The notes under the pieces are model-generated. The model did no database searches. It had not been told where the DNA came from and worked only from the letters and a program-made list of their open reading frames with translations. From IMG/VR virus record IMGVR_UViG_2671180778_000012, positions 1 to 9,480 of that record: a stretch of DNA of 9,480 bases. The stretch is one strand, 5' to 3'. Below are positions 4,554 to 9,480 of the stretch, in pieces. Within the stretch, counting starts at the first letter, position 1; every line of letters begins with the position of its first letter. This DNA comes from a virus (Duplodnaviria > Heunggongvirae > Uroviricota > Caudoviricetes). The translations under genes and the position numbers were made by a program.

Positions 4554-4566
4554 ACTTATGGAATAA

Positions 4567-4795
4567 CTGTTCACCACTGTTCACCCTGTCATAAATATCT
4601 TTTATATCAGTATATTATAGGGTGAACAGTTATTTATGAACTGTTCACCAAACTATTCACTGTTCACCTTTTTGATTGTTTATTGAGCTTCAAGGGTGAA
4701 CAGTGGTGAACAGTTGGTGAATAGTTTTTGTGAAACTGTTCACCCCTTAACATTATGAATTAAAAGAGAAAATATCAAAAGGTGAACAGGTGAAG
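4567..4795. repeat. Iteron array, putative replication origin: 9-bp CTGTTCACC / GGTGAACAG in 9 perfect and 2 degenerate copies, flanking AT-rich segments
   Basis: Forward copies at 4567, 4577, 4641, 4660, 4736; reverse copies at 4621, 4695, 4705, 4781; degenerate copies at 4652 and 4716. Tandem pairs are 10 bp apart. AT-rich 4591-4620 is flanked by inverted copies. Array begins 14 bp after the primase stop. Confidence 0.65.
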
Positions 4796-4950: not shown

Positions 4951-5022
4951 GGGTCCTCCCGGTGTAGTGACCTGCCACGGGGCGGGAACGGCGCGGAAAA
5001 AGGCTGGTTTTTGCATTTTCAT
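4951..5022 (+). repeat. Conserved 72-bp non-coding element, copy A (second copy at 7487-7558)
   Basis: Hand alignment to 7487-7558 gives 66 of 72 identical positions. Both copies start 2 nt after a terminator T run. Confidence 0.8.
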
Positions 5023-7486: not shown

Positions 7487-7558
7487 GGGTCCTCCCGGTG
7501 GGGTGGTCTGCCACGGGGCGGGAGCGGCGCGGAAAAAGGCTAGTTTTTGCATTTTCAT
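7487..7558 (+). repeat. Conserved 72-bp non-coding element, copy B
   Basis: 66 of 72 identity with 4951-5022. Lies 154 bp upstream of the Nu1-like gene. Confidence 0.8.
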
Positions 7559-7711
7559 TCGTCATCATCATCTTTCTATGATATTGAATTTTAAGTGTTT
7601 TTATTTTTGGTATGTTAATTTTGCTTGTTTTATGCTCAACATATAGCGCATTTTTTGACCTCTTCTGAAAGTTGTTCGCAAGATGCATGTTTAAAACATT
7701 CTGGAGCGGGT

Positions 7712-8197
7712 ATGGATCGAGAACTGAAAAATCTGATGCTGAACATTAATCAACTGGCGGCGATAGCGGGAATATGTCGTCAGACTGCGGCGGCAAGGCT
7801 GAAAAACATCCAGCCAGCCGGAGGGCATGACAAGCTAAAACTCTATCGGGTGACTGACATTCTGACCTGTTTTCTTGATCTTCCCGTTCCGGCATCACTG
7901 GAAGAAATGGAGCCACATGACCGTAAGGCCTGGTATCAGTCCGAACGTGAGCGCCTCAAGTTCGAACAGGAAACGGCGCAACTCATACCCGCCGATGATG
8001 TGCGAAAAGAGATGGCTATATGGGGGGAAATCGTAAGCGAGGAACTGGCAAAACTCCCCAATATTCTGGCACGTGATGCCGGGCTTAAACCGATGGCAGT
8101 AAACAGAGTGCAGTCAATTATTGACGATTTGCGTAATCAGATTATCAGCCGGATGGTAAAAAATGACGTAGTGAATGAGGTCGCAAAACAGGCATGA
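7712..8197 (+). CDS. Lambda Nu1-like small terminase subunit homologue (TerS / packaging-redirection type), 161 aa
   Basis: N-terminal HTH INQLAAIAGICRQTAAARLKN parallels lambda Nu1 KKQLADIFGASIRTIQNW, recalled from memory. ATG at 7712 with GGAG 5 nt upstream. The upstream TTG at 7625 is unlikely to be the start. Confidence 0.7.
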   Translation: MDRELKNLMLNINQLAAIAGICRQTAAARLKNIQPAGGHDKLKLYRVTDILTCFLDLPVPASLEEMEPHDRKAWYQSERERLKFEQETAQLIPADDVRKEMAIWGEIVSEELAKLPNILARDAGLKPMAVNRVQSIIDDLRNQIISRMVKNDVVNEVAKQA

Positions 8198-8481
8198 TAA
8201 TGACCGAATCTGAAATACTGCGATTAATCCGCTGTGCTGGTGGAATCAGCCAGTTGGCTGACGAACAGGCCGCGCAGCCGGATACAGTCACCGCTGAAAA
8301 TTACGCGCGTGTGGTGGCTGAGGTGATGCGCCGTGACGGTATTGAGCTTAACGGCGTGGATATGCGCAACATACGAACTAGAGTTCTTGAGTTGCTGGCA
8401 TACCGTCGCCGTTCTCAACAACGGAGGGAGAGCGCGAAAAATACTTACCAGTGGAAGAAGCCGGAACGGTTGCAGCGGTAG
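8194..8481 (+). CDS. Hypothetical protein (95 aa)
   Basis: ATG overlaps the TerS stop (ATGA at 8194-8197). No family recognised. Too short to be a large terminase. Confidence 0.45.
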   Translation: MIMTESEILRLIRCAGGISQLADEQAAQPDTVTAENYARVVAEVMRRDGIELNGVDMRNIRTRVLELLAYRRRSQQRRESAKNTYQWKKPERLQR

Positions 8482-8818
8482 ATTCCTGATATTCAGGAAA
8501 ACCACGAATCTGTGGGGTTTACTGGCGCGGTTACGGCGGTGACACGCACCGAGGCAGAACAATTACCGTAGGTTAAAGCGACAGTATTCACACCAAAGGC
8601 AGAAATTAGCGGTTAACGTAACTGACTGATATTTTCGGGAACAGCCAACGGCTGAGGCCGGAGCTATAAAAATAGCTTTGGGTACAGTCCTCAGTTTTGA
8701 GGGATGTTAACCAACTGAATAATAAGCAAACCTCAAAATTGAGTTTTGTATCTGCCTGAGTTATTTCTGTGCTAACTTGCTGATATTCCCGATAGCGCAA
8801 AAGTGCGTTGGCTGGTGG

Positions 8819-8990
8819 GTGAGTTGCAGATCTGCAACTCGACCATGAAATTACGGAAACTACCCGTAGTTTGGGTAGTAAGAGTAACACCCAGATTTTG
8901 GGGCTTACTCGCGATACCCAAATAAAGGGTATCGGTGTAAGAAATATCGTTTCTCATATGTGAGCACCGAGGGCGGAATTCCGCCTTCGG
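8819..8990. other. Cluster of palindromes/hairpins in non-coding DNA: 20-bp perfect palindrome 8821-8840, hairpins 8859-8879 and 8912-8934, near-palindrome 8967-8990
   Basis: All four read directly. 8821-8840 is GAGTTGCAGATCTGCAACTC. Hairpins are ACTACCC-N7-GGGTAGT and CGATACCC-N7-GGGTATCG. 8967-8990 is CCGAgGGCGGAATTCCGCCtTCGG. No long ORF with a coding signature covers this region. Confidence 0.6.
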
Positions 8991-9177
8991 TTACTTATTG
9001 TGCCCATGCACAGGGAGGGGCGGGTCAAATCTCTGTACCCTGACGTCTTCCGGACTGCCAGCCCCATCGTTTTTTTACGCCCGCGAAAAATAAAAATTGT
9101 TTGTATGTGAGTATTGTAGCCAGCAAAAGCTCTTTCTTTAGTGGCTTATTGTTTCTAATAGATTTTGGGAGGTAGAA

Positions 9178-9480
9178 ATGGGAGGCCCAGCGAAAGCTGG
9201 GCCGAGCTTGTTACGCTGTCATTACTTCAGCATGATAACTAAAGCTATACATACTAGCACTACGGCTATTGGGCATAGACCTAAATTGCCAAGTGCTGCG
9301 ATTAAACCTGTAACGGCAATCACACGTGCAGACAGCAGGTCTGAGCCCTTTCTTAAAGTATCCATTGATACCTCCGTCAGGGTTTTTGCCGGTCTCTTGG
9401 AGAGTTGGGGGCAAAAGTTCAGACCCGTAGCACTTTCTTGTTCGCAGGTGAACGGCTGCTACGACCCAACTGTTCTGTAG
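9178..9480 (+). CDS. Hypothetical protein (100 aa), uncertain
   Basis: GGGAGG 5 nt upstream of the ATG. ORF ends with TAG exactly at the window end. G-first codon fraction about 29%. Unusual amino-acid composition and a perfect hairpin right after the ATG leave coding status open. Confidence 0.4.
   Translation: MGGPAKAGPSLLRCHYFSMITKAIHTSTTAIGHRPKLPSAAIKPVTAITRADSRSEPFLKVSIDTSVRVFAGLLESWGQKFRPVALSCSQVNGCYDPTVL

What the first reader, a model, noticed from the sequence alone, without database searches (positions are those of the whole stretch)
8819..8990. Dense cluster of perfect palindromes and paired hairpins in a 700-bp non-coding tail
Within about 170 bp lie a 20-bp perfect palindrome, two related hairpins with 7-nt loops that share a TACCC...GGGTA core, and a 24-bp near-palindrome centred on GGCGGAATTCCGCC. 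This density is far above chance and is not explained by any ORF. Candidates are a structured non-coding RNA, a recombination or att-proximal site, or a single-strand origin or transfer-type site.
Basis: seen in the sequence. Interest (0 to 1): 0.6.

Follow-up and report, generated by a model that had tools for sequence, protein, structure and literature searches.

The report
Conserved hairpin block beside satellite cos
The palindrome cluster is real: it is a conserved non-coding block plus a terminator-like hairpin at the right end of an E. coli phage satellite, just upstream of a DNA-packaging (cos) site, and the block's own function is still unknown.

Summary
Four strong hairpins lie in 8819-8990, against 0.2 expected by chance.

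The window is the right 9.5 kb of an ~11-kb PICI-type phage satellite integrated at tRNA-Ile. The cluster lies in the non-coding tail after the last gene (orf95, 8194-8481).

The tail is modular:
- Unit A (8773-8815): an IHF-consensus motif plus a small hairpin, ending in a Chi site.
- Block B (8816-8937): the 20-bp palindrome plus three CCC-N7-GGG dyads spaced exactly 27 bp apart.
- Module C (8938-9012): a GC-rich hairpin (8966-8991) with a U-rich tail, terminator-like.
- A cos site (9013-9098), 80-92% identical to the cos regions and physical genome ends of SfV, SfI, SfII, ST64B and phiP27 phages.

Block B occurs in 704 of 5426 complete E. coli genomes, about one copy each. Every copy examined lies in a satellite tail, in satellites with different packaging modules. 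B is better conserved than the neighbouring gene. It matches no Rfam family, tRNA or coding frame.

B is not tied to cos: 46 of 66 unique copies lack that cos, and EcCICFT073 lacks B.

Best reading (~0.4): a transcribed 3'-end and terminator module. Rivals: a DNA protein-binding array, or a separate small RNA. A single-strand origin, an att site and a dispersed host repeat are not supported.

The parts
8773..8815 (+). Unit A. TAAC-TTGC-TGATA (8773-8785) matches the IHF core consensus WATCAR-N4-TTR on the - strand. A small hairpin GCGCA-AAAG-TGCGT follows. It is one copy of a repeat unit found in arrays in satellite tails; further window copies start at 8619 and 8708.
   Evidence: There are 83 unique units. 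The 4 central bases vary while the flanks are fixed. 75% carry a perfect stem of at least 5 bp, against 14% of shuffles, with at least 26 different stems.
8811..8818 (+). Chi site GCTGGTGG abutting the palindrome. It is oriented to be recognised by RecBCD entering from the cos end on the right.
   Evidence: 29 of 66 unique block-B copies have Chi in this position. Tails carry 1.9 Chi per kb.
8816..8937 (+). Block B, a conserved 122-bp satellite-specific module that folds as four tandem hairpins.
   Evidence: It occurs in 704 of 5426 E. coli genomes. It is 95.6-98% identical where orf95 is 79.5-94%. Fold.
8821..8840 (.). P1, the perfect 20-bp palindrome centred on GATC. The outer helix TGG(8816-8818)/CCA(8843-8845) extends it.
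   Evidence: The outer pair is G-C in 20 sequences and A-U in 3, which is compensatory. The centre varies: GATC, GATT or AATT.
8859..8879 (.). H1, dyad 1: ACTACCC-GTAGTTT-GGGTAGT. It competes with an alternative hairpin at 8848-8872.
   Evidence: The stem hardly varies. The two inner pairs are broken in the 75%-identity class.
8882..8910 (.). Middle hairpin containing dyad 2, CACCC-AGATTTT-GGGGC (8888-8904).
   Evidence: It is in phase, 27 bp from dyads 1 and 3. Its pairing is not kept in the divergent class.
8912..8934 (.). H2, dyad 3: CGATACCC-AAATAAA-GGGTATCG. The loop is variable and the stem covaries.
   Evidence: Pair 99-121 is CG in 18 sequences, UA in 5 and UG in 2. Pair 103-117 is AU in 22 and CG in 1. 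Loop variants are listed.
8966..9003 (+). GC-rich hairpin ACCGAGGGCGGAATTCCGCCTTCGGT followed by UUACUUAUUGUG. It looks like an intrinsic terminator for the + strand.
   Evidence: It is the only terminator-like site in 8400-9480. Fold energy is -23.7 kcal/mol on + and -19.4 on -. It has a G.U position on +.
9013..9098 (+). HK97/SfV-type cos site. The cosN region is 9049-9065, with TGCCAGCCCC at 9056-9065. A T/A-tract region lies downstream.
   Evidence: It is 80-92% identical to the cos regions of SfV, SfI, SfII, SfIV, ST64B and phiP27. The SfI record ends and the SfV record starts here. phiP27 annotates CGCCCGCCCC as the cos-site.
8194..8481 (+). orf95, the last gene of the satellite (phrog_1561, function unknown). 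Its stop codon lies in the first tail repeat unit. Every block B examined follows a homologue of it.
   Evidence: The AlphaFold model has low confidence and shows three helices.
7712..8197 (+). TerS-like gene (DUF1441, phrog_141), preceded by its own lambda-type cos at 7487-7560.

Best explanation
The cluster is the 3'-terminal non-coding module of a PICI-type phage satellite.

Shown:
- It lies after the last gene (terS-like, then orf95).
- It consists of a conserved 122-bp block of four tandem hairpins (8816-8937) followed by a GC-rich hairpin with a U-rich tail (8966-9003).
- It ends 10-22 bp before an HK97/SfV-type cos site (9013-9098).

Inferred:
- The region is transcribed on the + strand as the 3' untranslated end of the terS-like/orf95 transcription unit.
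- The hairpins form in that RNA, and the GC hairpin terminates it just before cos and att.
- The upstream hairpins act as a structured 3' end that protects or processes the message. Its strong sequence constraint suggests that a specific factor also recognises it.

The block is a portable module of enterobacterial satellites, not part of the cos signal itself.
For: Context:
- The satellite has an integrase, an AlpA-type HTH protein, a P4-like primase, a protease-capsid fusion and a TerS-like gene. It sits between nfeF and tRNA-Ile.
- A 10.8-kb circular copy exists.

Position and orientation:
- Every copy of the block examined lies downstream of an orf95 homologue on the same strand.
- The only terminator-like site in 8400-9480 is the + strand hairpin at 8966-8991. 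It is more stable on + than on -.
- In the cfPICI class, a different hairpin plus a T-run follows the block.

Hairpin selection:
- Compensatory changes occur in H2 and in the outer helix of P1. Nine cells changed on both sides, against 3.3 +/- 1.4 in shuffles, 0 of 500 reaching 9.
- Intermediates are U.G, never C.A, at pair 99-121.
- The + strand consensus fold has 7 more pairs, using G.U.
- The tail repeat units keep hairpins through at least 26 different stems.

Not part of cos:
- 46 of 66 unique copies lack the SfV-type cos.
- In cfPICIs the cos lies 2.6 kb upstream of the block.
Against: - No transcript data are available.
- No sigma-70-like promoter was found nearby, and the U-tract of the terminator is imperfect.
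- Plain stabiliser or terminator hairpins do not need the near-complete sequence conservation seen here. The block is 95.6-98% identical where orf95 third codon positions are 68-78%.
- Against the 75%-identity class, substitutions fall in stems about as often as in loops. The middle hairpin and the inner pairs of H1 are not kept.
- Consensus fold energies of the two strands are nearly equal, -25.4 against -25.1 kcal/mol.
- G.T against A.C mismatch counts across all tail hairpins show no strand bias, 29 against 21, p = 0.32.
- The exact 27-bp phasing of three dyads looks more like a DNA-binding array than an RNA structure.
Confidence: 0.4

Rival explanations
1. A DNA-level nucleoprotein site. 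The palindrome and the three phased CCC-N7-GGG dyads are binding sites for a dimeric DNA-binding protein of the satellite, helper or host. Together with the flanking IHF-type site they would build a bent complex that assists a late step, such as packaging termination at the adjacent cos, protection of the DNA end, or module exchange.
For: - Three dyads are spaced exactly 27 bp apart.
- Half-sites are conserved while the spacer of dyad 3 varies freely.
- Inter-hairpin sequence is also conserved, and the block is more conserved than the adjacent gene.
- An IHF consensus and a Chi site lie immediately upstream.
- In 20 of 66 unique copies the SfV-type cos lies at a fixed +180 or +189 nt. With that cos the block would be within about 250 bp of the last-packaged end.
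Against: - The motif occurs nowhere else in the satellite, so no operator-promoter logic is visible.
- The left half-sites of dyads 1 and 2 are lost in the divergent class.
- 46 of 66 copies have no SfV-type cos nearby.
- SfV-type phages hold the complete cos in about 100 bp between the HNH and terS genes, without such a block.
- HK97 TerS binds downstream of the cut, not upstream (bioRxiv 10.1101/2023.07.17.549218).
- The SfV operators are of a different type, TGTACC-N5-GGTACA.
- No candidate binding protein was identified. The orf95 model has low confidence.
Confidence: 0.25
2. A separate structured small RNA, or an sRNA processed from the 3' UTR, of about 120-190 nt on the + strand. It would act in trans on helper-phage or host transcripts.
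For: - Four tandem hairpins end at a terminator-like hairpin.
- Sequence conservation is high in loops as well as stems.
- G.U-compatible polymorphisms occur on the + strand.
- The block moves as a cassette between otherwise unrelated tails.
Against: - No Rfam family matches, even at E up to 10.
- There is no conserved promoter: the sequences upstream of P1 are unrelated between classes, and none was detected.
- The terminator differs between classes.
- No exact-string match to four of its sequences in the searchable paper library.
Confidence: 0.15
3. A sequence spread by recombination with no function of its own. It would be a cassette carried along at the boundary between the conserved satellite backbone and the exchangeable int/att module. 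Its conservation would reflect recent exchange, perhaps promoted by the abutting Chi site.
For: - Similarity boundaries are sharp and the flanks are unrelated.
- Copies truncated at different points exist.
- Chi abuts P1 in 29 of 66 copies.
- Substitutions against the divergent class look neutral with respect to the hairpins.
Against: - It is kept full-length in 692 of the 704 genomes that carry it.
- Compensatory pairs occur in P1 and H2.
- There are no terminal inverted repeats or target duplications of the kind a mobile element would leave (sequence inspection).
Confidence: 0.12
4. A single-strand initiation or origin site, a transfer-type site, or an att arm.
For: Multiple hairpins within about 120 nt resemble G4-type priming signals. 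This is resemblance only.
Against: - The satellite has a P4-type origin with about 10 TGTTCACC iterons at 4566-4790, and none in the tail.
- No relaxase or rolling-circle Rep gene is present.
- The block occurs with at least four different att sites and integrases, at variable distance from the core.
Confidence: 0.05

Closest known systems
E. coli PICI satellites such as EcCICFT073 (Fillol-Salom et al. 2018, PMC6092414; 2019, PMC6739421)
   Same: - Same backbone: integrase, AlpA-type HTH protein, YlcI/YnfO, Icd-like, DUF4222, P4-like primase, a capsid-related gene, a TerS-related gene, an orf95 homologue and a non-coding tail with IHF-motif/hairpin units.
- It carries helper-type cos sites, more than one, as EcCICFT073 does.
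   Different: - EcCICFT073 has no block B, and its two lambda-type cos sites flank rppA.
- This element has a protease-capsid fusion and a DUF1441 TerS-like gene instead of RppA. No sequence relation to any solved structure, RppC included, was found.
- It has three cos-like sites of two types: lambda-type at 4951-5022 and 7487-7560, and SfV/HK97-type at 9013-9098.
cos sites of HK97/SfV/phiP27-type phages
   Same: Window 9013-9098 is 80-92% identical to the whole intergenic cos region of these phages, including the G-rich left part, the 10-nt cos core and the downstream T/A tracts.
   Different: The palindrome cluster itself lies outside this homology. In the phages an HNH gene occupies the equivalent upstream position.
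BIME-1 / RIP elements of E. coli: REP palindromes flanking an IHF site (recalled from general knowledge, not tested by alignment)
   Same: The tail repeat units combine an IHF core consensus with a hairpin whose stem varies while pairing is kept. They lie just after stop codons.
   Different: - They were seen only in satellite tails, not dispersed. Density is 2.5 per kb in tails against 0.39 per kb across all fetched loci.
- They do not resemble the REP consensus as recalled.
- Block B has no IHF motif and is a single-copy element.
Lambda sib/tI retroregulator and REP-type 3' stabilisers (functional analogy only)
   Same: Structured hairpins at the distal end of an operon next to att or cos. 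A terminator is embedded in a larger dyad region.
   Different: There is no sequence relation. RNase III or exonuclease involvement is untested, and the block lies upstream of att rather than beyond it.

Membership tests
PICI-type phage satellite (the element that holds the cluster) | About 10-15 kb, flanked by att, with integrase, AlpA-type regulator and primase/replication module, and no full set of virion genes | tested here: met
   The element is about 11.2 kb between nfeF and tRNA-Ile. It has an integrase, an HTH_17 protein, a D5_N/Pox_D5 primase and a P4-type iteron origin. Its only virion-related genes are a protease-capsid fusion and a TerS-like gene. A circular 10.8-kb copy exists.
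PICI-type phage satellite | Induction, packaging and transfer by a helper phage | not testable with these tools
   Inferred only, from the helper-type cos sites.
HK97/SfV-type cos site (window 9013-9098) | Sequence homologous to the physical genome ends or annotated cos of these phages | tested here: met
   The SfI record ends and the SfV record starts inside the match. The phiP27 cos-site CGCCCGCCCC aligns with TGCCAGCCCC at 9056-9065.
HK97/SfV-type cos site | Cleavage by a helper terminase at this site | not testable with these tools
   Needs sequencing of the ends of packaged satellite DNA.
cos accessory sites (cosB or cosQ) as the role of the palindrome block | Constant linkage to a cosN, and presence in satellites or phages that use that cos | tested here: not met
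   - 46 of 66 unique copies have no SfV-type cos within 450 nt.
- In cfPICIs the block is 2.6 kb from cos.
- EcCICFT073 and SfV-type phages lack the block.
Rho-independent terminator (8966-9003) | GC-rich stem-loop followed by a T-rich run on the transcribed strand | tested here: met
   11 pairs, 8 of them G-C, and at least 5 T in the 8 bases that follow.: -23.7 kcal/mol. Termination itself is untested.
Any Rfam RNA family, tRNA or tmRNA | Covariance-model or ARAGORN match | tested here: not met
   The best hits in the tail have E between 0.46 and 5.7 and fall far below the gathering scores.
Structured RNA in general | Base pairs kept through compensatory changes beyond what relatedness explains | tested here: inconclusive
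   Three pairs have double changes, 9 cells against 3.3 in shuffles. The covariation score is only marginal (30 of 500 shuffles reach it). The middle hairpin is not supported. The two strands fold with nearly equal energy.
Dispersed host intergenic repeat (REP, BIME, ERIC) | Many copies per genome in unrelated intergenic regions | tested here: not met
   present in 704 of 5426 genomes, median 1 copy and maximum 6. All contexts examined are satellite tails.
P4-type ori/crr replication site | Clusters of TGTTCACC-type iterons bound by the primase | tested here: not met
   The iterons lie at 4566-4790, with none in 8482-9480.
attP arm | Co-variation with the integrase type and a fixed distance to the core | tested here: not met
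   The same block occurs with tRNA-Ile, tqsA, prophage terL, prophage capsid-gene and other att sites, at about 150-750 bp from the core.
Protein-coding gene | A conserved open frame with an excess of synonymous change, or a family match | tested here: not met
   A 61-codon - strand frame is open in three variants. Synonymous against non-synonymous counts are no better than in the other frames, and PHROG and Pfam give no hits.

The most novel reading that the evidence does not exclude
Block B (8816-8937) is a previously undescribed, satellite-specific cis element: a structured RNA, or a phased three-dyad DNA site. It would be required for a step of the PICI or cfPICI life cycle that is independent of which helper and which cos the satellite uses. 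Examples are control of the late packaging operon, protection of the entering DNA end together with the abutting Chi site, or interference with the helper.
Probability: 0.3. Interest if true: 0.65.

Novelty: new variant of a known kind. Interest (0 to 1): 0.45.

Why it matters
PICI and cfPICI satellites move virulence and defence genes among enterobacteria. Their proteins have been studied, but their non-coding ends have not.

- **An untested shared element.** A 122-bp element is kept more strictly than the neighbouring gene. It is present in 13% of complete E. coli genomes and shared by satellites with different capsid and terminase strategies. That makes it a candidate for a common, still unknown step of satellite biology. 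Deletion and transfer assays in existing EcCI systems can test it directly.
- **Possible use of two helper families.** One small satellite carries three cos-like sites of two helper types. This suggests it can use two unrelated helper families, which bears on host range and spread.

If the block proves to be only a terminator or stabiliser stack, the finding is ordinary.

Tried and rejected
- **Rfam.** The whole window at E up to 1 and the tail at E up to 10 gave nothing credible.
- **ARAGORN.** No tRNA or tmRNA.
- **Literature string search.** Four exact strings from the cluster returned one unrelated paper. A search for 'DUF1441' returned nothing relevant.
- **Coding hypothesis.** The - strand ORFs 8772-8957 and 8606-8890 have no PHROG or Pfam hit and no synonymous excess.
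- **cosB hypothesis for the DUF1441 TerS-like protein.** Rejected. Its cognate lambda-type cos lies upstream of the gene at 7487-7560, and block B is not linked to any cos.
- **Decoy for the helper repressor.** The SfV operator region holds TGTACC-N5-GGTACA, and no ACCC-N7-GGGT occurs in its immunity region.
- **P4-like crr.** No iterons in the tail.
- **MITE.** No terminal inverted repeats or target duplications at the block boundaries.
- **Strand test by G.T against A.C mismatches over 168 tail hairpins.** 29 against 21, not significant.
- **orf95 as a DNA-binding partner.** No PDB relative. The AlphaFold model has pLDDT 64, too poor for a fold search.
- **Genome-contig scans.** Both failed. 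The protein patterns found no relative, and my DNA pattern was too loose, giving 120 chance hits with no homologue.
- **Covariance model of the block.** It found no diverged copies in block-less tails.
- **Locating EcCICFT073.** This took three region fetches. A megablast meant to find it was uninformative.

Full report
**1. Observation**

- a perfect 20-bp palindrome, GAGTTGCAGATCTGCAACTC, at 8821-8840;
- two hairpins with 7-bp stems and 7-nt loops that share TACCC...GGGTA, at 8859-8879 and 8913-8933;
- the near-palindrome ACCGAGGGCGGAATTCCGCCTTCGGT at 8966-8991.

A hairpin scan (at least 7 pairs, at most 1 mismatch) finds four in 8819-8990. Markov shuffles give a mean of 0.2, and 0 of 2000 reach four. 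Single hairpins fold with z about -4 to -5. The 122-nt core folds with z -6.6 on + and -8.0 on -.

I add four features:
- A third dyad, CACCC-AGATTTT-GGGGC, lies midway between the two TACCC hairpins. CCC-N7-GGG therefore recurs at 8863, 8890 and 8917 with an exact 27-bp period. Only one other CCC-N7-GGG occurs in the window (9003, out of phase), and the fuller ACCC-N7-GGGT form occurs nowhere else.
- A competing hairpin lies at 8848-8872.
- A Chi site at 8811-8818 abuts the palindrome.
- There is no credible ORF. No frame shows a coding-like substitution pattern, and no family matches.

**2. What the window is**

The tail is found in E. coli chromosomes and, apart from the cos segment, not in phage records. 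In strain HS13-1 the homologous locus is an ~11.2-kb island between nfeF and tRNA-Ile. Its genes, in order:
- tyrosine integrase and a hypothetical protein;
- an HTH (AlpA-like) protein;
- YlcI/YnfO, Icd-like and DUF4222 proteins;
- a P4-like primase;
- a ClpP-protease/major-capsid fusion;
- a DUF1441 protein and a 93-95-aa hypothetical protein.

The window proteins match these families. DUF1441 is PHROG 141, 'terminase small subunit'. It is 53-70% identical to the TerS of the closer lambdoid phages, such as phi458, Ayreon and mEp460. About ten TGTTCACC iterons follow the primase gene at 4566-4790, as in a P4-type origin.

A 10.79-kb circular 'plasmid' record, NZ_CP148328.1, is the same kind of element in excised form.

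This is a PICI-type phage satellite, the class described by Fillol-Salom et al. (PMC6092414, PMC6739421). The cluster lies in the non-coding tail between the last gene (orf95, 8194-8481) and the tRNA, which is about 100 nt beyond the window end.

**3. A cos site starts 22 bp after the cluster**

A sensitive blastn of the tail against phages gives one strong match. Window 9013-9098 is 80-92% identical to SfII, SfV, SfI, SfIV, ST64B, phiP27 and relatives. The match falls at the physical ends of those records:
- The SfI record ends at ...CTGCCCGCCCC.
- The SfV record begins at TCCGGACTGCCCGCCCC.
- phiP27 annotates CGCCCGCCCC as its 'cos-site'.

The window equivalent is TGCCAGCCCC at 9056-9065.

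In the phages the homologous ~100 bp fills the whole gap between the HNH gene and terS. For HK97 the TerS-binding site lies 15-29 bp downstream of the cut (bioRxiv 10.1101/2023.07.17.549218). By analogy, the complete cos signal of this type lies at 9013-9098, and the palindromes upstream are not part of it.

**4. The tail is built of modules, and the cluster is two of them**

E. coli and IMG/VR comparisons give sharp similarity boundaries.
- **Module A, 8773-8815.** This is one copy of a repeat unit that forms arrays in satellite tails. The unit is TAAC-N4-TGAT(A/T)TT... followed by a short hairpin. On the - strand the fixed positions spell the IHF core consensus WATCAR-N4-TTR, and the four variable bases coincide with its N4. 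Of 83 unique units, 75% carry a perfect stem of at least 5 bp, against 14% of shuffles. At least 26 different stems occur (CCTCA/TGAGG, GCGCA/TGCGC, CCCCC/GGGGG, CCTGC/GCAGG and others). In these units the hairpin, not its sequence, is what is kept.
- **Module B, 8816-8937.** This holds the palindrome and the three dyads.
- **Module C, 8938-9012.** This holds AGAAATATCGTTTCT and the GC-rich hairpin. That hairpin is the only terminator-like site found in 8400-9480. It is more stable on the + strand, -23.7 against -19.4 kcal/mol, because of a G.U position.

**5. Distribution of block B**

B occurs in 704 of 5426 complete E. coli genomes, 692 of them near full length, with a median of one copy. 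It is therefore not a dispersed host repeat. In every context examined it follows an orf95 homologue at the right end of a satellite, but the satellites differ:
- protease-capsid/DUF1441 elements (window, L001, L002, L178);
- a satellite embedded in a prophage terminase gene (L009);
- capsid-forming PICIs with HNH, TerS and TerL (L008, L127);
- an EcCICFT073-like element (L010) whose B is only 75% identical.

EcCICFT073 itself has orf95 and the unit array but no B. Its two lambda-type cosN sequences flank rppA. A covariance model of B finds no diverged copy there or in other B-less tails.

Of 66 unique B copies with enough downstream sequence, 20 have the SfV-type cos at a fixed +180 or +189 nt, and 46 have none. 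In the cfPICI L008 the cos-like G-rich site lies between HNH and terS, 2.6 kb upstream of B. B is thus a portable module of the satellite backbone. It is not an accessory of one cos type or of one att site.

**6. Constraint on B**

B is 95.6-98% identical between elements whose orf95 genes are 79.5-94% identical. Third codon positions of orf95 are only 68-78% identical in the two most distant same-length comparisons. Either nearly every position is constrained, or the block has been exchanged recently.

In an alignment of 26 distinct variants:
- Three pairs show changes on both sides that keep pairing. H2 pair 99-121 is CG in 18, UA in 5 and UG in 2. H2 pair 103-117 is AU in 22 and CG in 1. 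P1 outer pair 4-31 is GC in 20 and AU in 3.
- This amounts to nine such cells, against 3.3 +/- 1.4 in shuffles, with 0 of 500 reaching nine. The covariation score is only marginal, reached by 30 of 500 shuffles.
- The H2 loop is the most variable stretch.

Against a purely structural constraint:
- The middle hairpin and the inner pairs of H1 are broken in the 75% class. Substitutions against that class fall in stems about as often as elsewhere.
- RNAalifold on the + strand adds seven pairs that use G.U, and two common polymorphisms turn wobble pairs into Watson-Crick pairs. Even so, the consensus energies of the two strands are almost equal, -25.4 against -25.1 kcal/mol.
- A count of G.T against A.C mismatches over all tail hairpins shows no strand bias, 29 against 21.

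The comparative evidence for an RNA structure is therefore suggestive, not decisive.

**7. Explanation and rivals**

| Reading | Weight | Main support | Main objection |
|---|---|---|---|
| Transcribed 3'-end and terminator module of the terS-like/orf95 unit | 0.40 | Constant position and orientation after the last gene; a terminator-like hairpin closes it just before cos; in the cfPICI class a different hairpin plus T-run follows; hairpins selected throughout the tail | Does not account for the strict sequence conservation or the 27-bp phasing |
| DNA protein-binding array next to the IHF-type site and Chi | 0.25 | Accounts for the conservation and the 27-bp phasing | No binding protein, no second site and no promoter to anchor it |
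| Separate or processed small RNA | 0.15 | Hairpins ending at a terminator; cassette-like mobility | No Rfam match, no conserved promoter |
| Recombination-spread cassette without function | 0.12 | Sharp boundaries, truncated copies | Kept full-length in 692 of 704 genomes; compensatory pairs |

A dispersed repeat is excluded.

**8. Comparison with what is known**

- The element is a new member of the E. coli PICI family.
- The cos at 9013-9098 belongs to the HK97/SfV cos type by sequence.
- The GC hairpin meets the sequence definition of an intrinsic terminator.
- Block B matches no described family (Rfam). Exact-string searches of the paper library for four of its sequences found nothing relevant. 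The PICI papers I read discuss only cosQ, cosN and cosB, not the tail.
- The repeat units resemble BIME-1/RIP elements in design, an IHF site plus a variable-stem palindrome. They appear specific to the satellites.

**9. Verdict**

The terminator-like hairpin is ordinary. The 122-bp block is a real, conserved and apparently undescribed element whose mechanism remains open. Interest is moderate.

Noticed in passing
window 4951-5022 and 7487-7560; 9013-9098: The satellite carries three cos-like sites of two helper types.
- Two near-identical lambda-type copies (GGGTCCTCCCGG...CACGGGGCGGGAGCGGCGCGG...) each follow an intrinsic terminator. They closely match the cos region upstream of DUF1441-type terS in the lambdoid phages phi458 and vB_EcoS-606R10.
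- The third is the SfV/HK97-type cos.
This suggests the satellite can use two unrelated helper families.
   Followed up: partly
window 4566-4790: About ten TGTTCACC/GGTGAACA iterons lie just after the D5/P4-alpha-like primase gene, a probable P4-type origin. Rfam's weak 'MIR1508' hit at 4638-4727 is this inverted iteron cluster, not a microRNA.
   Followed up: partly
window 8811-8818, whole window, and related tails: Chi (GCTGGTGG) is strongly enriched.
- The window has 7 sites in 9.5 kb, 5 of them on the + strand.
- Satellite tails carry 1.9 per kb, against 0.47 per kb in the upstream coding DNA.
- One site abuts the 20-bp palindrome and faces the cos end, where it could stop RecBCD entering the packaged DNA end.
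- SfV is also Chi-rich, with 17 on + and 5 on -.
   Followed up: partly
window 8619-8660, 8708-8750, 8773-8815; arrays in L065, L070, L177 (38656-38900): Satellite tails hold arrays of units of about 50 nt. Each unit is TAAC-N4-TGAT(A/T) (the IHF core consensus on the - strand) plus a hairpin whose stem differs from unit to unit while pairing is kept. The stop codon of orf95 lies in the first unit. The design resembles BIME-1/RIP, but the units appear specific to the satellites.
   Followed up: partly
window 9225-9365 (- strand), hairpin 9183-9202: An unannotated 47-codon ORF encodes a hydrophobic peptide, MDTLRKGSDLLSARVIAVTGLIAALGNLGLCPIAVVLVCIALVIMLK. It has a GGAGG ribosome-binding site 5 nt upstream, and a GGCCCAGC-GAAA-GCTGGGCC hairpin follows it. 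It could be a small membrane protein or a type I toxin-like gene. No Pfam or NCBIfam match.
   Followed up: partly
L178 (NZ_CP148328.1, 10,790 bp, circular): A record deposited as an E. coli plasmid is an excised circular copy of this satellite type. In it the whole stretch from orf95 to int is about 720 bp, in the order unit A, block B, module C, cos, Chi, attP arm repeats.
   Followed up: partly
L008 about 9270-9300, L177 about 38975-39000, L086: Other satellite tails hold a second 20-bp palindrome centred on GATC, GATATGGGGATCCCCATATC. A symmetric variant, GATATGGTGATCACCATATC, also occurs. The style matches the window palindrome, which is also centred on GATC. Function unknown.
   Followed up: no
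L009 (O157:H7 H6437) and L010 (PK8275): Related satellites sit inside prophage late genes: terminase gpA in L009 and the major capsid gene in L010. These are helper-embedded PICIs of the kind described in PMC10111431, and they carry the same block B.
   Followed up: no
window 8495-8531: A 37-nt stretch of the tail is 89.5% identical to part of a KilA-N/hkbK gene of HK620-like phages (E = 7e-3). It could be chance or a small recombination remnant.
   Followed up: no
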